A stretch of DNA of 64,000 nucleotides from the human T2T-CHM13v2.0 reference genome, Homo sapiens. This document shows positions 33,790-40,604 of this stretch, piece by piece. The notes under the pieces were generated by a model that saw only the letters and a program-made list of their open reading frames with translations, was not told the DNA's origin and did no database searches. The stretch lies in the NCBI RefSeq assembly GCF_009914755.1, contig NC_060938.1; one strand, given 5' to 3'. Both the position numbers and the translations under genes were made by a program. Each line of letters opens with the position of its first letter. Positions within the stretch are counted from its first letter, which is position 1.

Positions 33790-36060
33790 ACGCTATGATC
33801 TCTCTCCTCGGTGTTGCTTACCCATTCTAAACAAGCCCTTCTTCTAGTGATTCCATCTTCTTCCTCAGCTCTCACTCTCCTTCCCATCCCAGCCAAACTT
33901 CTTGAAAGGGTGCCTACATTCACTCTCTCACACACTTTTCACCTCAACCTACCCTAACAGGCTTCCACTCACAACTCCCTACTGAAACTGTTGAAAGATT
34001 ACTAAGGACCTGTCCATGCCAACTCCACATGCCATTCTTTTTAAATTTATTTTTATATTTTGTAGAGACAGGGTCTCACTTTGTTGCCCAGGCTGGTCTT
34101 GAACTCCTGGGCTCAAGTGATCCTCTTGCCTCAGCCTCCCAAAGTGCTGGGACTACAGGCGTGAGCCATGGTGCCAAGCCCATGTGGCGTTCTTTAGTCC
34201 TTGCCTACTACATCTCTTGACATCATTTGACCTAGCAGACAATTCCTCCCTGCTTGAAAACTTTTTGGTTGGTTTCCATAATACCTGGACACCACATCTT
34301 CCTGGCTACTGCTTTTCTCTTACCTCCCTGGCTACTGCTTGTCATCCCACTTGCCTGCTTCTCCTCCACCTATAAATGTTGGAGTTGCTGGAGGGCTCTG
34401 TCCTGGGTCCTTCTCTCAAGTTGCATTCTCTTCCTATCTTCCCATAAAGAGTCTGATCCACTATTCTAGCTTCAATTACTATCTGTATACCAATGGCTCC
34501 CAAATTTGTCTTTAGCTAAGAGACTGCCCCTCCGAGTGTCACAACCACATAGCCAATTCCCCACTTCAGATTTCTGCTTAAATGTATCAAGATATATCAA
34601 ACTTGATAAGTTTTGAATTGAGCTCTTCATCCTCCCCTCCCACCCCCAACTCTTTATCCCTGCCCCAATCTCCTCTTGCCATGTTTCTTTCTTTTTTTGA
34701 GACAGGATCTCACTCTGTCACCCAGGCTGGAGTGCAGTAGCATGATCATAGGTCACTACAGTCTCAACCTCCCAGGCTCAAGTGATCCTCCTGCCTCAGC
34801 ATCCGAGTAGCTGAGACTACAGGAACCTGCCACCACGCCTGGCTAATTTTTATATTTTTTTGTAGAAACGAGTCCTCACTTTGTTGCCCAGGCTGCTCTC
34901 TAGGCTCAAGTGATCCTCCTACCTTGGCTTCCCCTGTGAACACAGGCACGTGCCCTGGCTAGTTTTAAAAAGTTTTTTTTTTTTTTTTTTTGTAGAGATG
35001 AGAGTCTCCCTATGTCGCGCAGGGTGGTCTCAAACTCCTGGGCTTAAGCCATCCCCCCACCTTGTCCTCCCAAAGTGCTGGGATTACAGGCATGAGCCAC
35101 CACACCTTGTCTCATGCCGTTTCTTAACTCCCTAATAGCTCCCTAGTCCACACAGTTGGCTCAAGCCAGATTCTGCAAGTCATCCTTGATACCGTCCTCT
35201 TCCTCATTCCCTTCAATCTGTCATCAAGACTTGTCAGTTCTACTTCTGAAACACTTCTTGAATTCATCTATTTATCTTCATCTCCATCACTACCACCTGA
35301 GTCCTGGCCACCATCTTCTCACCTCTGGACTTTGGCAACAGCTTCATAAACTGGTCTCCCCACACTCGTGCTGCTTCTTCCAATCCACCCCCGAGAGAGA
35401 TATTTTATTTTACTAAAAAAATAAAATGGGACTACAGGCACATGCCACCACATCCAGCTAATTTTTTTAGTTTTTATTTTTTGTAGAGACAGTCTTGCCA
35501 TGTTGCCAAGGCTGGTCTTGAACTCCTGGGCTCAAGCAGTACTCCTGCCTCAGCCTCCCAAAGTGTTGGGTTTATAGGTGTGAGCCACCTTGCCTGTCCC
35601 CAGAGAGGTATTTTAAAACACAAATCCTCATCTTACCCTGGCTCTGCTTAACAGCCTTCAGAGGCGTCCAGTGGCCCATAGATAATGTCCAAGGCTTTCC
35701 TGTGATCTACCAGTCTGGTCAGTGTGACCACCTTTGCAAGCTCATTTCAGCCACTCTCCCCTCACCTTCCTCAGCTCCAGCCACGCCTTCCTCAGCTCCA
35801 GCCACGTAGGGTGCTTTTGGTTCCCAAACAGGCCAACCCATCTGTCTCCTCAGGAGCTCTCAATGAGCTGATCTCTCTGCTATTTGCTTTTTCAAGGAAC
35901 CCTTCCCTGACCACCCATCCAGTTATAATACATCACCCCTTGGCACCGTGGGCTTTTCCTTCACTGCACCCTCTTCTATTAGTTGTTTTTCCTCCTTGTG
36001 GGACTGTAAGCCCCAGGAGGGCAGGCACCATGGCTGTCTGACCCACTGCTCTGTCACCAT
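33790..36060 (-). mobile_element. L2 relic with nested Alus (34040-34181, 34686-34960, 34973-35107, 35428-35600; all minus strand)
   Basis: CT-rich L2-type sequence (ctactgaaactg; ggctcccaaattt; ctgtaagccccaggagggcagg) interrupted by Alu pieces. Confidence 0.7.
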
Positions 36061-36651
36061 TGCCAATCCTGATAGGTACTGATAGGGTGAAGATGGAGTG
36101 TCTGGTATCGTCATATCCCAGTCCCAGGACAGCTGTGTGGCCACCTACCATTTGGGGACTGTTTTCTTTTTAAAATTTAAAAAAAAATTTAAAGTCTACA
36201 CCCCATGATTCTGTATGGGGACTGTTTTCTTTTAGCCCCAAAGTCCAACAGGAGCAAATCCTTTAGTGGCTCTTAAAGCTAGAGTTCAGCTGTTTGGAGG
36301 AAAGGGTGACAGAGCTGACCCACAGGGTAGATGCGACATCTTCCCCTGGAGCACTAAGGCCAAACAGGAGCCCCCTGGACGTTTGGGAGCAGGCTTTACA
36401 AGCCCTGCCTAAAGCTAAGATGTCATTAGAGTGATGCGTTGCATCCCTGCCTTGTTCTCTAAGGAAGCTTTGGTGTTTTCAAGACAGGCCCTCTCCCCCC
36501 TGGCCCATTGTCCTTACTTGTTTTCATTCTGTATAGTGCTGTTATTACGGGTCAGGCCTCCTTGCACTCATGTGAAATCGTTGAGAACCTACTCAATTAG
36601 AAAGTTCTGAACAGGGCCTTAGAGGAGTGGGGGCTAGAAAGATGAACCTGG

Positions 36652-36800
36652 GGCCAGGCACGGGGGCTCATGCCTGTAATCTTAACACTTTAGGAGGCAG
36701 GGGCTGGAAGATCACTTGAACCTGGGAGCTGGAGGTTATGGTGAGCCATGATCACACCGCTGTATTCCAGCCTGGATGACAAAGCAAAACCCAGTCTCTA
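36652..36800 (+). mobile_element. Alu monomer (FRAM/FAM-like) with GAAA-rich tail
   Basis: Single-arm Alu. Confidence 0.75.
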
Positions 36801-36923
36801 AAACATAAAAGAAAGAAAGGAGGGAAGGAAGAAAGAAAGGAATGAAAGCAAGCCGAATCTGCTCTGAGGGAACCAGTATAGCAAGACAGAATGTAATCAA
36901 GTATCTTAAGAGTGGCCTAGGCT

Positions 36924-37240
<317 letters not shown>

Positions 37241-38230
37241 AGTGGCCTAGGCTTTTTGGGGAACAAATTGGTTGTGGCTGGCCCTCAGGGAGCAAGCTTT
37301 GCGGCATAGCAGCGTAGGCTAAAAGGTCCTCCCCGGAGACAAAATCTGCAGGGACCACGGGGTGGGAAGCATCAGAAGGCTGCCCACTCTGACTGCAAAT
37401 ACAACAAGCTGGAGTGTTCCTAGAAGAGGCAATTTCTTCCGCGTGTGTGTTGGGGACAGCCTGTGTGTGTGAACATTTTCTGCCCTTGCCGCGCAGGGCT
37501 GGGTGGACCAGGAACCACCCGCAGAGGAAGAGACTTATTACCTCTTGGCCATGTCTGTCTCCAGAAGAACCGACCTTTCCTGCTCTATGTGCAACAAGAC
37601 ACACCTTCCGAGGAAGGAGGCGAACAGGATTTCCATCATTACTACTGCCCTATTAAAACACACACATACACACAACTGTGTAATTAGCCTCTGCAGGAAA
37701 GGCGCACAAACAGGATGCGTTCGAGCTGACCCCGGGATGAGCCATCCCTGTAAATATTAGGAAAAAGAACCTCCCCGCCGTGCCCCCGCCTCCGGCCAGG
37801 GCCTCTTGGGGATGGCCCTGCAGGGTCACCAGCCCACCGGGGAGGTTGGGAGAGAGGGGGCGGGCGACTCCTCGCCGCGCGGGTTCCTGGCTGGAGCGCC
37901 CTCCTCTGCGTCCTCCCAACCTTCCATCGCTCCCCAGGTCAGTCTACCACGCCTCAGGTGTTTGCTCGGGCTGGGCCACGAACCCTTTCCTTTTTGGCCT
38001 GCGCCCGGGGTGGCCCCTAACCCGCAGCGCACGGCCAGACCCAGCGCTACAAGGAGGGCGCGCAGGGCGGCGCAAGCGGGCACTGGCCTCCCGGGGGCTT
38101 GCGCGGGGATCCACCCACCGCAGGGCCGGGCCGCGGACCGCGGGCCACGCCCCTGGGGTCCGGAAGGCGCGGGAGCGGACGCGGGGGTTCTGTGAACTTG
38201 GAACCTGGCGGTGCGAGGTTCTCGCCGGGG

Positions 38231-38287
38231 ATGCGGCGGCGGCAGCTGCTTCCTGGTTTGAAGCTCGCCGAGTGGGGGAGAGCGTGA
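38231..38287 (+). CDS. uORF1 in the PRKCH 5' leader, 18-aa MRRRQLLPGLKLAEWGRA
   Basis: gggATGc at 38231, TGA at 38285-38287. Only relevant to transcripts starting upstream of 38231. Confidence 0.75.
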   Translation: MRRRQLLPGLKLAEWGRA

Positions 38288-38566
38288 GCCTTCGGAGGCG
38301 GGGGCAGGAGGAGAAGCAAGAGGAGGCGGGGGAAGAGACGCTTGGGGCTGGGGCTCACCGGACGGGTAGGTCCGGCTCTCCAGGGAGAGGAGCTGCCCGG
38401 CCCTGGAGAAGGGGCGAGTCCTGCGCGAGTCCCCGGGAGGCGCCGCGCGCTTGGAAGGGACGGTCGGGCTTCCCCGGCCCGCTGAGGGCTCGGCGGCGGG
38501 CTCCCCTCCTTTCCACCTCGGGAGGGAGGGGAGGAGGGGAGGGAAAAGTCCCACGGAGGAGGCAGA

Positions 38567-38647
38567 ATGGCCAGTCGAGGGGCGCTTAGGCGCTGCCTTT
38601 CCCCAGGGCTGCCTCGACTCCTGCACCTGTCCCGAGGGCTGGCCTGA
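38567..38647 (+). CDS. uORF2 in the PRKCH 5' leader, 26-aa peptide MASRGALRRCLSPGLPRLLHLSRGLA with a pseudosubstrate-like motif
   Basis: agaATGg (A at -3, G at +4), TGA at 38645-38647, 67 nt before the main ATG and in a different frame. SRGALRR resembles the PKC pseudosubstrate RKGALRQ. Confidence 0.9.
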   Translation: MASRGALRRCLSPGLPRLLHLSRGLA

Positions 38648-38714
38648 GACGGGACTCCCGGTTCTCCCGCTGCGAAGCAGCGCGGCCCCCCGGGGCCGGG
38701 GCAGCGGCGCCGGC

Positions 38715-39077
38715 ATGTCGTCTGGCACCATGAAGTTCAATGGCTATTTGAGGGTCCGCATCGGTGAGGCAGTGGGGCTGCAGCCCACCCGCTGGTCCCT
38801 GCGCCACTCGCTCTTCAAGAAGGGCCACCAGCTGCTGGACCCCTATCTGACGGTGAGCGTGGACCAGGTGCGCGTGGGCCAGACCAGCACCAAGCAGAAG
38901 ACCAACAAACCCACGTACAACGAGGAGTTTTGCGCTAACGTCACCGACGGCGGCCACCTCGAGTTGGCCGTCTTCCACGAGACGCCCCTGGGCTACGACC
39001 ACTTCGTGGCCAACTGCACCCTGCAGTTCCAGGAGCTGCTGCGCACGACCGGCGCCTCGGACACCTTCGAGGGTTGG
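38715..39077 (+). CDS. PRKCH: Protein kinase C eta, coding exon 1 (aa 1-121, N-terminal C2-like domain)
   Basis: Translates to MSSGTMKFNGYLRVRIGEAVGLQPTRWSLRHSLFKKGHQLLDPYLTVSVDQVRVGQTSTKQKTNKPTYNEEF...DTFEGW, the PKC-eta N-terminus. ATG at 38715 (ggcATGt), second in-frame ATG at 38730 (accATGa). Ends at the canonical phase-0 donor TGG|GTGAGT (39078). Confidence 0.98.
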
Positions 39078-40604
39078 GTGAGTAGCGGTGACCCCTTCCC
39101 TTTGTGTCCACCCAACCCCCGTTCCCCTTATGTTTTTCAAAACTCACCCGGGTCCCGCTTTCCCATCGCTTTGTGGCTGAGGGAATTCCCTCCAGACTTT
39201 GGTCTTCGTCCAGGTGGCCGCGGCACTGGTGACGCGACCGCGGTGGGTGTGTGCAGGCGCAGGTGTGTCTCCAGGAAGCCGGCCTGGACACGATCCCCTT
39301 TCAGGACAGCGGCTTGGCCTAACGGGAAGTCGGGCAGGGGTCCAGGGCGGTCACCCTTTCCGCCCAGTCTTTGGGTAAGGAGCTCCAACTTTCAGCACGC
39401 GAGTGATAGGTAGGAAAGGCAGGGAAGGAGTGATACAAAAGGGACTTGATTTGGGTAAAGTGCTTCAAGCGCTACTTAGGAGAAAGCCGTACATTCTCGC
39501 GAGTATTATTCATAATGTTTATGGATACATGTTGGTTCAGCCGCTCAGACGTGCACACGTGTTTCGGCTTGCACATCCCAGAGGTACATGAGCTACACTG
39601 GCAGGGAAATGAGCGCCTGGGTCTGCACGTTGGCAGTTTTATTATTTAGCATTTTTCCAAGGAGATGAGATTTACATATACTTGCAGGTAACTTAGTCAG
39701 TCCGAGGTGGGAGTCCTGCAGTGTGGGTTTCTGCTGCTATGGGTCTGAGAAGAGGCTGTAAGGACTCCTCAGGAGGTTGTTAACTGTCTTCCCTCCCCCC
39801 ATCACCAGCCTGTGTTCCTGGGTATTGACGTGTAGCTACCCGCAGCTCTCCCCTTGCCTCTGCTTTTCACATAGTTCCCATGAGGCATAATTTCTGCTGT
39901 AAATCAATTAAAACTTCTAGAGCGCTCTACACGGTGCTAACATGCTTTTACTGCCTAATCCTCACACTGTCTTTGTGATGCAGGTGTCATCGTTCCCACT
40001 TTGAGATGATGGAATGATAATTATAATAAAGTAGTCTGGTTTGGCAAAGTGGAGTACGCCATTTGAAGACTCTCAGGAGTTTAATAGTTTAAGTTCTGGA
40101 GGGAGTCAGTTTTGAACCCAATATCAGTATTGAAAATGTTTGAAATTTACAAGTGGTGAAATCAGATGGATGGTGATGAAGGCTCATTTAGGTATTTATT
40201 TTATACTTTGTGGAATTAGTAATTTTACCGTATATTTTCTAAAATTAAAGATGGCTTGTGGAGCTATTCCTTTCTTTTAAATAGAAGTACAAAAACCATA
40301 ATGACTAACCTTAATCGTCAAATTATATTGAGTTAATTTCCCTTCAGCCTAATTTACTTTGTGGTACTTAGAAGTGGGGACTAGAGAGGAATTGCTAAAA
40401 TACAGTTAGATATTTACATTTATCCTGTGAATTTCTGGAAATGAAATAGAAGTGAGTGTAGGCATCCAGATGGAATTGTTGAGTTCTATTAGTGTCTGAT
40501 TAGGAGTTAGGTCGGGCAAAGCTCTAGAGGAACTAGGTTCTGAATTATGGTGGTGCAGATTGGCCAGTGGCCATGAGAAGCATCTCTTCCTGGAGATAGC
40601 CTAG

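What the first reader, a model, noticed from the sequence alone, without database searches (positions are those of the whole stretch)
38567..38647. uORF in the kinase's own 5' leader encodes a PKC pseudosubstrate-like micropeptide
Seen in sequence: a strong-Kozak AUG (agaATGg) opens a 26-codon ORF, MASRGALRRCLSPGLPRLLHLSRGLA, ending 67 nt before the PKC-eta ATG, whose context is weaker (ggcATGt). It is absent from the ORF track because it is under 60 aa. Established knowledge: PKCs are autoinhibited by a basic pseudosubstrate with Ala at the phospho-acceptor position (PKC-alpha RKGALRQ), and SRGALRR fits that pattern. Inference: one mRNA makes both the kinase and a cis/trans inhibitor, and the uORF also throttles main-ORF translation by leaky scanning or reinitiation. 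I recall this peptide being published as uPEP2, so it is striking but probably not undescribed.
Basis: partly seen in the sequence, partly recalled or inferred. Interest (0 to 1): 0.9.

Follow-up and report, generated by a model that had tools for sequence, protein, structure and literature searches.

The report
Known PKC-eta upstream peptide uPEP2

Summary
An ATG at 38567 (A at -3, G at +4) opens a 26-codon ORF, MASRGALRRCLSPGLPRLLHLSRGLA, ending at 38647, 67 nt before the PRKCH ATG at 38715. It is one of only two ATGs in the 523-nt leader of NM_006255.5.

It is not new. The peptide string is identical to uPEP2 of Jayaram et al. 2021 (PMC8501901). It hits Pfam PF21952 "PRKCH_uORF2" at 62.6 bits. 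A review lists it under UniProt C0HM02. The published CRISPR guide maps inside it.

My own additions:
- The motif is unlikely by chance: 5 of 20000 composition-matched shuffles.
- It resembles PKC pseudosubstrates only over six residues, 3/6 to 4/6 identical.
- Two old PRKCH-derived copies elsewhere in the genome keep the ATG and its context. Base by base they support M-A-S-R-G-A-L as the older state.

Verdict: already known, low interest.

The parts
38567..38647 (+). uORF2 of PRKCH, which encodes uPEP2 (26 codons plus TGA)
   Evidence: Searches give the sequence and translation. One search shows the identical string in PMC8501901. One search gives Pfam PF21952 at 62.6 bits, E 2e-17, covering 1-26 of 26 positions.
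38564..38570 (+). Start context of uORF2 (A at -3, G at +4)
   Evidence: The same -3 A and +4 G are present in all 10 rows of alignment A1, that is the parent plus 9 copies.
38576..38593 (+). Codons 4-9, R-G-A-L-R-R: the pseudosubstrate-like core with Ala-6 (38582-38584) at the phospho-acceptor position
   Evidence: One search aligns it on the Ala with the pseudosubstrates of seven human PKC genes read from this genome. One search reports A6S/T making it a substrate.
38586..38608 (+). Target of the published uORF2 CRISPR guide (20 nt) plus GGG PAM
   Evidence: The guide sequence comes from PMC8501901 and was mapped.
38648..38714 (+). 67-nt spacer between the uORF2 stop and the PRKCH ATG
   Evidence: Its fold is no more stable than shuffles (-36.1 kcal/mol, z +0.18).
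38715..39077 (+). PRKCH main ORF, exon-1 part (start context G at -3, T at +4)
   Evidence: Joining it with the 13 downstream exons gives an open 683-aa protein.
38231..38287 (+). uORF1 (18 codons, MRRRQLLPGLKLAEWGRA; context GGGGATGC)
   Evidence: PMC8501901 section 5 describes two uORFs, with uORF1 translated less than uORF2.
38192..38714 (+). 5' leader of NM_006255.5 (523 nt, 73% G+C)
   Evidence: The whole-leader fold is -304.7 kcal/mol, z -1.75, and 5 of 100 shuffles fold at least as well.

Best explanation
This is uORF2 of the PRKCH mRNA, which encodes the published 26-residue micropeptide uPEP2. It acts in two ways. In cis, its strong-context AUG captures scanning ribosomes, so fewer reach the weaker PRKCH AUG 148 nt downstream. 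Under stress, more ribosomes are reported to scan past it (leaky scanning dependent on GCN2 and eIF2-alpha phosphorylation). In trans, the N-terminal residues R4-G5-A6-L7-R8-R9 occupy the substrate site of novel PKCs (eta, epsilon, delta, theta) like a pseudosubstrate with Ala at the acceptor position. This inhibits catalysis and lowers the protein levels of those kinases. What is shown here: the ORF, its contexts, its identity to uPEP2 and to Pfam PF21952, the motif match, and the improbability by chance. What is shown only in the literature: translation, binding, inhibition, and cis repression. What is inferred: the size of the trans effect at natural peptide levels. Also inferred: the resemblance is a short-motif convergence and not descent from a pseudosubstrate exon.
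For: Identity: same 26 letters; PF21952, 62.6 bits against a cut-off of 27; UniProt C0HM02 in a review table; the published guide maps to 38586-38605.

Position: (exon 1 of NM_006255.5; only two ATGs in the leader).

Motif. The core P-2 to P+3 is identical at 4/6 to epsilon, alpha, beta and gamma, and at 3/6 to eta, delta and theta. Ala at P0, a hydrophobic residue at P+1, and basic residues at P-2, P+2 and P+3 are all in place.

Chance: (5, 9 and 30 of 20000 shuffles for the strict, family and loose patterns). In one search, about 21 kb of sense strand from the 5' regions of nine PKC genes held only four motif hits: the true alpha, beta and gamma pseudosubstrates and uORF2.

Age. Two PRKCH-derived copy lineages keep the ATG and its context. 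At every base of codons 1-7 the parent state is shared with at least one lineage. 72 of 81 uORF2 bases are so supported.

Literature: PMC8501901 sections 5, 6, 7 and 9; PMC12910040 passages; PMC3474909 passage giving 1.5-fold, 2.2-fold and 3-fold de-repression for single and double uORF mutants.
Against: All primary functional data that my searches found come from two papers, PMC8501901 and PMC12910040. I found no other primary study.

The IC50 is about 2 uM and no cellular concentration is given in the sections I read. The authors themselves say the endogenous role needs genetic study in mice.

The cell and animal work used synthetic myristoylated peptide. From established N-terminal processing rules, the native peptide with Ala at position 2 would probably lose Met-1 and could not be myristoylated. 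That is my inference and I did not test it.

Deleting uORF2 cannot separate the cis and trans effects on PKC-eta itself.

The resemblance covers six residues only. The basic cluster at P-3 to P-6 of true pseudosubstrates is replaced by M-A-S, and nothing after P+3 matches.

The retrocopy comparison shows age, not selection. Parent bases unsupported by either copy number 9 of 81 in uORF2 and 32 of 193 in the upstream leader, which is not clearly different.

A 2025 preprint concludes that most essential uORFs act through translation and not through their product, though it names uPEP2 as an exception.
Confidence: 0.85

Rival explanations
1. uORF2 matters only in cis, as a ribosome trap. Its peptide is a by-product whose Arg/Gly/Ala/Leu-rich sequence comes from the 73% G+C leader. 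The inhibition seen is then pharmacology of micromolar, lipidated, basic synthetic peptide and not a natural function.
For: The leader is 73% G+C. The resemblance is six residues long and lacks the upstream basic cluster. The IC50 is about 2 uM, the cell work used myristoylated peptide, and the authors give their own caveat. The retrocopy tally shows no excess constraint on uORF2 over the flanking leader. A preprint reports that most uORFs act through translation and not through their product.
Against: The motif arises in 5 to 30 of 20000 composition-matched shuffles. No other hit was found in the sampled 5' regions of nine PKC genes. Inhibition and binding are reported as selective for novel PKCs, with control peptides inactive, and A6S/T gives a substrate. 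Over-expressed uORF2 in PKC-eta knock-down cells lowered PKC epsilon and delta, and a start-codon mutant restored them. The peptide is reported as conserved at the same length in other mammals, and a Pfam family exists.
Confidence: 0.13
2. The ORF is a chance, untranslated reading frame in a G+C-rich leader.
For: None beyond its short length. No tool here measures translation.
Against: The AUG context is strong and is one of only two AUGs in the leader. Published ribosome-profiling peaks, luciferase fusions and antibody detection exist. The ATG and its context are kept in two old copy lineages.
Confidence: 0.01
3. uORF2 descends from a true pseudosubstrate-coding segment, for example a relic of an exon-1 pseudosubstrate like that of the classical PKCs, and did not arise anew in the leader.
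For: In classical PKCs the pseudosubstrate sits near the start of exon 1. The six core codons are 13 of 18 nt identical to those of PRKCA and PRKCE.
Against: There is no similarity outside the six codons at either the protein or the DNA level. A 13/18 match in G+C-rich Arg/Gly/Ala codons is weak evidence. The paper reports conservation only in several mammals, far younger than the split of the PKC subfamilies (that age is my own knowledge).
Confidence: 0.01

Closest known systems
uPEP2 / PRKCH uORF2 (Jayaram et al. 2021, PMC8501901; Pfam PF21952; UniProt C0HM02 as listed in PMC10743673)
   Same: Everything matches: the 26-residue sequence, the gene, the position in the leader, and the published guide target.
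   Different: Nothing differs. This window is the reference-genome locus of that peptide.
In-chain PKC pseudosubstrates (eta RKRQRAMRRRV, epsilon RKRQGAVRRRV, alpha/beta RFARKGALRQKNV, delta NRRGAIKQAKI, as read from this genome)
   Same: Ala at the acceptor position, Gly at P-1 (all but eta), a hydrophobic residue at P+1, and basic residues at P-2, P+2 and P+3. The core is identical at 3/6 to 4/6 positions.
   Different: It is a separate polypeptide from its own ORF, not a segment just ahead of the C1 domain. M-A-S replaces the basic cluster at P-3 to P-5. There is no V-H-x-V/I-x-x-H-x-F continuation. It is reported to inhibit novel PKCs only, although its core equals the classical one at 4/6.
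Synthetic pseudosubstrate-derived inhibitor peptides, e.g. the PKC-zeta peptide ZIP (named in PMC8501901)
   Same: A short basic peptide with Ala at the acceptor site that blocks the substrate pocket.
   Different: uPEP2 is genome-encoded and reported to be made in cells. In that paper it outperformed the eta pseudosubstrate peptide.
Stress-responsive regulatory uORFs of the ATF4/GCN4 type (named in passages seen)
   Same: Short uORFs in a long leader repress the main ORF, and repression eases when eIF2-alpha is phosphorylated.
   Different: PKC-eta is reported to use leaky scanning past the uORFs and not delayed reinitiation. In addition, the uORF product itself has an activity.
Other uORF-encoded microproteins with a function of their own (ASDURF, MIEF1 microprotein; named)
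   Same: A uORF product that is a working protein and not only a ribosome trap.
   Different: Those join chaperone or mitoribosome complexes. uPEP2 inhibits the enzyme family of its own main ORF.

Membership tests
PRKCH_uORF2 / uPEP2 (Pfam PF21952) | Sequence matches the family profile above the curated cut-off | tested here: met
   62.6 bits against a cut-off of 27, E 2e-17, positions 1-26 of 26; in a six-frame search of the whole genome this locus scores 60 bits, the best hit.
PRKCH_uORF2 / uPEP2 (Pfam PF21952) | Identical to the published human peptide | tested here: met
   The translation equals the string in the Peptides sections of PMC8501901 and PMC12910040.
PRKCH_uORF2 / uPEP2 (Pfam PF21952) | Lies in the 5' leader of the PRKCH mRNA, upstream of and not overlapping the main ORF | tested here: met
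   it lies inside exon 1 of NM_006255.5 and ends 67 nt before the ATG at 38715, in a different frame (148 nt between the two ATGs).
PRKCH_uORF2 / uPEP2 (Pfam PF21952) | Translated in cells | not testable with these tools
   Reported in PMC8501901 section 5: ribosome profiling, luciferase fusions, and immunoprecipitation of a peptide of about 3 kDa. The supplementary figures were not seen.
PKC pseudosubstrate motif | Ala in place of the phospho-acceptor, hydrophobic residue at P+1, basic residues at P-2 and at P+2/P+3 | tested here: met
   R4-G5-A6-L7-R8-R9 aligned on Ala with seven human PKC pseudosubstrates. It is 3/6 to 4/6 identical and 4/6 to 5/6 similar.
PKC pseudosubstrate motif | Further basic residues at P-3 to P-6 | tested here: not met
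   uPEP2 has M-A-S at P-5 to P-3 and starts at P-5. Eta and epsilon have R-K-R, and alpha and beta have R-F-A-R.
PKC pseudosubstrate motif | Part of the kinase chain, directly ahead of the C1 domain | tested here: not met
   eta's own pseudosubstrate is in exon 3 (residues about 155-166), and uPEP2 is a separate ORF. So it works like a pseudosubstrate but is not one in the structural sense.
PKC pseudosubstrate motif | Comparison with the atypical PKC (zeta, iota) pseudosubstrates | not tested
   the C1 exon of PRKCZ and PRKCI starts inside the domain, so the pseudosubstrate lies in an earlier exon that I did not locate.
PKC pseudosubstrate motif | Occupies the substrate site and inhibits catalysis; Ala to Ser/Thr gives a substrate | not testable with these tools
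   Reported in PMC8501901 section 6.
Regulatory uORF (cis repressor) | AUG in good context in the leader, with a stop before the main AUG | tested here: met
Regulatory uORF (cis repressor) | Loss of the uAUG raises main-ORF output | not testable with these tools
   Reported in PMC8501901 section 5 and in a PMC3474909 passage citing Raveh-Amit 2009. The 2009 paper itself is not held.
Conserved-peptide uORF | Peptide sequence and length kept across species | tested here: inconclusive
   No other mammalian genome is reachable here. The paper reports same-length peptides in five mammals (its Table S1 was not seen). Within this genome, two old PRKCH-derived copies support the ATG, codons 1-7 and the stop as the older state. 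That shows age, not selection.

The most novel reading that the evidence does not exclude
uPEP2 arose anew in the leader as a free-standing pseudosubstrate, convergent with the in-chain ones and not derived from them, and it is old. Its start codon, Kozak context, M-A-S-R-G-A-L head and stop position were already present when two PRKCH-derived copies split off. One of these is a processed pseudogene in a GPHN intron that now differs from the parent coding sequence by 11.5% at non-CpG sites. By a rough clock this puts the split near or before the base of the primates. Retrocopies would then serve as dated fossils for the birth of a working micropeptide.
Probability: 0.45. Interest if true: 0.3.

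Novelty: already known. Interest (0 to 1): 0.12.

Why it matters
The biology is striking: one mRNA encodes a kinase and a small inhibitor of that kinase's subfamily, and the inhibitor's reading frame also throttles translation of the kinase. The peptide is being pursued as an anti-tumour agent. But the uORF was described in 2009 and the peptide in 2021. The peptide now has a Pfam family and, according to a review table, a UniProt accession, so this scan adds no discovery. There are two modest additions. First, the resemblance to true pseudosubstrates is a six-residue motif and not homology. Second, old PRKCH copies elsewhere in the genome give an internal witness that the ATG and the R-G-A-L head are ancient.

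Tried and rejected
The Atlas search and the structure predictor need 30 aa or more, so I did not call them. No mammalian genome other than this one is reachable, so dN/dS or PhyloCSF-type tests could not be run.

Solved structures. phmmer of the peptide against PDB chains at E up to 10 gave 0 matches.

RNA elements. Rfam at E up to 1 over 37500-39500 gave 0 matches. Folds of the whole leader (z -1.75; 5 of 100 shuffles as good) and of the spacer, G-tract, uORF2 and start region (z +0.18, -0.95, -0.57, -0.18) do not exceed shuffles. I therefore claim no specific structure.

Descent from a pseudosubstrate exon. I considered this and set it aside. 9 to 13 of 18 core nucleotides match and nothing outside the core does.

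A shared 27-nt gap. The first ten-row alignment (A1) made both copy lineages seem to lack the 27 nt that include the annotated PRKCH ATG. A three-row re-alignment (A2) and BLAST show otherwise. The GPHN copy keeps that segment and instead lacks about 48 nt (a 39-column gap in A2) around the uORF2 stop and spacer. Only the acrocentric family lacks the 27 nt. I dropped the idea that the annotated start is a late gain. My note still carries the earlier, wrong wording.

Atypical PKC pseudosubstrates. These were not retrieved.

Raveh-Amit 2009 (PMC2772565). The paper is not held. I know it only through citing passages.

Supplements of PMC8501901. Table S1 (species) and Figs S1-S12 were not requested and not seen. 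They bear on the conservation and ribosome-profiling claims.

Full report
**1. The observation**

- An ATG at 38567 opens 26 sense codons, MASRGALRRCLSPGLPRLLHLSRGLA.
- A TGA at 38645-38647 closes them.
- 67 nt (38648-38714) separate the stop from the PRKCH ATG at 38715.
- The upstream ATG sits in GGCAGAATGG (A at -3, G at +4).
- The main ATG sits in GCCGGCATGT (G at -3, T at +4).

RefSeq's Select transcript NM_006255.5 has exon 1 at 38192-39077 with coding from 38715, so the ORF lies in the 523-nt leader. The merged exon 34978-39374 in the scan's annotation comes from one Gnomon model, XM_054376386.1, that reads through the exon-1 donor.

The leader is 73% G+C and has only two ATGs:
- 38231 opens an 18-codon uORF1, MRRRQLLPGLKLAEWGRA, in the weaker context GGGGATGC.
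- 38567 opens the ORF in question.

There is no ATG in 38056-38191, the extra stretch of the 659-nt leader quoted in older work.

**2. Is it more than chance?**

I read the pseudosubstrates of seven human PKC genes directly from this genome. To do so I searched it with PRKCH exon 3. The segments are:
- eta: RKRQRAMRRRV
- epsilon: RKRQGAVRRRV
- alpha and beta: RFARKGALRQKNV
- gamma: FCRKGALRQKVV
- delta: NRRGAIKQAKI
- theta: QRRGAIKQAKV

From these I wrote three patterns for P-2 to P+3. In 20000 dinucleotide-preserving shuffles of the leader, an ATG-opened and stop-closed ORF of at least 8 aa carried:
- the strict pattern in 5 shuffles,
- the family pattern in 9,
- a loose pattern in 30.

The patterns were written after seeing the peptide, which flatters these numbers.

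As a second control I scanned the three sense frames of about 21 kb from the 5' regions of nine PKC genes. For PRKCE, PRKCD, PRKCQ, PRKCZ and PRKCI this was only the first 2 kb from the annotated gene start, which may not hold the whole leader. The only hits were the true alpha, beta and gamma pseudosubstrates and uORF2.

**3. What it is**

It is uPEP2.
- The string in the Peptides section of Jayaram et al. 2021 (PMC8501901) is the same 26 letters. It appears again in PMC12910040.
- Pfam holds a family PF21952, "PRKCH upstream open reading frame 2". The peptide matches it at 62.6 bits (cut-off 27), E 2e-17, over all 26 positions.
- A review table gives UniProt accession C0HM02 for it (PMC10743673, passage).
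- The guide RNA that the 2021 paper used to delete uORF2 maps to 38586-38605 with a GGG PAM, inside the ORF.

**4. How it works, according to print**

I read the abstract, sections 5, 6, 7 and 9 whole, and further passages of PMC8501901. It reports the following.

Translation:
- Ribosome footprints peak at the uORF2 start and stop in several cell lines.
- Initiation-site profiling shows a peak at the start.
- uORF-luciferase fusions depend on the uORF ATG, with uORF2 stronger than uORF1.
- An antibody immunoprecipitates a peptide of about 3 kDa.

Cis effect:
- Mutating the uORF2 ATG raises PKC-eta.

Kinase inhibition:
- The peptide inhibits PKC eta, delta, theta and epsilon with an IC50 of about 2 uM. 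It does not inhibit alpha, gamma or zeta.
- It binds the four novel isoforms.
- A6S or A6T turns it into a substrate of eta and epsilon but not of alpha.
- The peptide lacking residues 1-9 is weak.
- Residues 1-17 alone are only partly active in cells.

Genetic evidence:
- CRISPR deletion in MCF-7 cells raises PKC eta, epsilon and delta and speeds proliferation.
- Over-expressed uORF2 in eta knock-down cells lowers epsilon and delta, and a start-codon mutant restores them.

Cis repression and stress-induced leaky scanning dependent on GCN2 and eIF2-alpha phosphorylation are credited to Raveh-Amit et al. 2009. I could not read that paper and know it only from citing passages:
- PMC3474909 gives 1.5-fold, 2.2-fold and 3-fold de-repression for the single and double uORF mutants.
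- PMC12910040.
- PMC3738444.

**5. What my own comparisons add**

*(a) The resemblance is a short motif.* Aligned on the Ala, the six-residue core RGALRR compares as follows:

| Isoform(s) | Core identity | Core similarity |
|---|---|---|
| epsilon, alpha, beta, gamma | 4/6 | 5/6 |
| delta, theta | 3/6 | 5/6 |
| eta | 3/6 | 4/6 |

- The peptide starts at P-5 with M-A-S, where true pseudosubstrates carry a basic cluster.
- Nothing after P+3 matches the conserved run into the C1 domain.
- At the DNA level the six codons match at 9 to 13 of 18 bases, with no flanking similarity.
- This fits a motif that arose in the leader, not a displaced pseudosubstrate exon.
- The core is as close to the classical type as to any novel type, and closer than to eta's own. 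Yet classical PKCs are reported not to be inhibited, so selectivity must come from elsewhere in the peptide. The paper's partial activity of residues 1-17 points the same way.

*(b) Old copies in the same genome.* A DNA search of the whole genome with 38192-38760 found PRKCH-derived copies in two groups.

The first is a copy in a GPHN intron on chr14, annotated LOC100419668.
- It matches across exon junctions, so it is a processed pseudogene.
- Its coding part is 85.8% identical over 309 nt.
- Over 562 aligned coding sites it differs by 14.9%, and by 11.5% at 513 non-CpG sites.

The second is a family of at least 11 fragments on the acrocentric short arms and pericentromeres of chromosomes 13, 14, 15, 21 and 22.
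- I aligned 8 of the 11.
- Those 8 are 96.4-99.8% identical to each other.

Over the leader, the identities are:
- parent to GPHN copy: 70.2%
- parent to the acrocentric family: 74.6-75.5%
- the two copy lineages to each other: 64.4-64.9%

All 10 aligned rows keep the uORF2 ATG with A at -3 and G at +4.
- The GPHN copy reads MASQGPFVSCFSPGLPPLLWLLRGL and then runs on through a deletion. It still scores 29.1 bits on PF21952.
- The acrocentric copies read M-A-G-stop. Their codon 4 is TGA. They also carry two deletions of 1 and 5 nt.

Base by base:
- The parent's state is shared with at least one lineage at 72 of 81 uORF2 positions.
- This includes every base of codons 1-7 and the stop codon.
- CGA (Arg-4) stands against CAA and TGA, both of which are CpG-decay products of CGA.
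- The first bases of codons 8 and 9 differ three ways and stay unresolved.

The two lineages carry different deletions near the main ATG, so they decayed independently there.

I infer that the ATG, its context, M-A-S-R-G-A-L and probably the 26-codon length predate these copies. From remembered primate neutral rates, 11.5% non-CpG divergence suggests an age near or before the base of the primates. This is rough and not a tool result.

The comparison shows age, not selection. Parent bases unsupported by either copy number 9 of 81 inside uORF2 and 32 of 193 in the upstream leader.

*(c) RNA structure.* No RNA family or unusually stable structure was found.

**6. Weak points of the published mechanism**

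- All primary data found by my four literature searches come from two papers, PMC8501901 and PMC12910040. The other papers are reviews or introductions.
- The IC50 is micromolar, and no cellular concentration is given in the sections I read.
- Cell and animal work used myristoylated peptide.
- The authors state that the endogenous role needs genetic study in mice.
- With Ala at position 2, the native peptide should lose Met-1 and cannot be myristoylated. This rests on established processing rules and was not tested here.
- The cis-only rival therefore keeps some weight. I put it at about 0.13.

**7. Comparison with what is known, and verdict**

This is a member of PRKCH_uORF2/uPEP2 on every feature I could test. 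It works like a PKC pseudosubstrate but is not one in the structural sense, because it is a separate chain, lacks the upstream basic cluster, and has no link to a C1 domain. It is also an ordinary regulatory uORF.

Novelty: already known. Interest: low (0.12). The biology is elegant, but the uORF was described in 2009 and the peptide in 2021, and the peptide is now catalogued. The one fresh angle is the use of retrocopies as internal fossils for the age of the peptide's head. It is modest and needs other genomes to be made firm.

Noticed in passing
window 38231-38287 (+): This is uORF1 of PRKCH: 18 codons, MRRRQLLPGLKLAEWGRA, in the weaker context GGGGATGC. It is the only other ATG in the leader. 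It is published as the less-translated of the two uORFs.
   Followed up: partly
window 38520-38543 (+), with 38501-38514: A G-quadruplex-type run, GGGAGGGAGGGGAGGAGGGGAGGG, ends 24 nt before the uORF2 ATG. It is one of 6 such motifs on the + strand of the window, with none on the - strand. In predicted folds it pairs with the C/U-rich tract just upstream (-35.6 kcal/mol, z -0.95, not beyond shuffles). It is partly kept in the old copies. It could hinder scanning ahead of uORF2.
   Followed up: partly
G000 chr14:61816913-61820995 (loci L035, L018, L041), inside GPHN: This is a processed pseudogene of PRKCH (LOC100419668), in four pieces covering mRNA positions 117-1333 and broken up by insertions. 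Its coding part is 76.8-85.8% identical to the parent and its leader part 70%. It keeps an open uORF2-like frame that scores 29.1 bits on PF21952.
   Followed up: partly
G000 chr13 (10.16, 10.81, 13.89 Mb), chr14 3.61 Mb, chr15 5.52 Mb, chr21 (6.90, 7.83, 10.76 Mb), chr22 (6.72, 11.05, 17.69 Mb); loci L024-L028, L036-L038: This is a family of at least 11 fragments derived from PRKCH exon 1 (window 38280/38374-38905) on acrocentric short arms and pericentromeres. The 8 I aligned are 96.4-99.8% alike and about 75% identical to the parent. They end inside exon 1, so I cannot tell whether they come from a retrocopy or from genomic duplication. They lack 27 nt that include the annotated PRKCH ATG but keep the second in-frame ATG.
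   Followed up: partly
window 38730-38732 (+): A second in-frame ATG (Met-6 of PKC-eta) sits in GGCACCATGA, a better -3 context than the annotated start 15 nt upstream. Ribosomes that leak past 38715 could start here and give a protein five residues shorter.
   Followed up: no
window 38451-38714 (+): The PRKCH reading frame stays open for 88 codons upstream of the ATG, overlapping uORF2 in another frame. In-frame near-cognate codons are TTG 38451, ACG 38460, 38553 and 38649, and CTG 38670. None is in a notably good context.
   Followed up: partly
window 34978-39374 (+): The long merged 'exon' in the scan's annotation comes from a single Gnomon model, XM_054376386.1. It starts 3.2 kb upstream and reads through the exon-1 splice donor at 39077. 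The curated transcript has exon 1 at 38192-39077.
   Followed up: yes
window 37985-38254 and 38405-38574: Two RefSeq 'silencer' elements overlap the PRKCH leader, and the second runs over the G-tract and the uORF2 ATG. An H3K4me1 enhancer element starts at 38536. The whole region 37800-39400 is a CpG island (60-78% G+C, CpG observed/expected 0.56-0.92).
   Followed up: no
window 39148-39431 (-): The first exon of PRKCH-AS1 lies in PRKCH intron 1 just past exon 1, inside the same CpG island. It is transcribed towards the PRKCH promoter. Its later exons lie upstream of the promoter, so the primary antisense transcript crosses the leader and uORF2.
   Followed up: no
window 36651-37246: Two masked repeats here match many places in the fetched loci at 70-80% identity, in both orientations. 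This is typical of a common interspersed repeat. I judged it to be an Alu by eye and did not test that.
   Followed up: no
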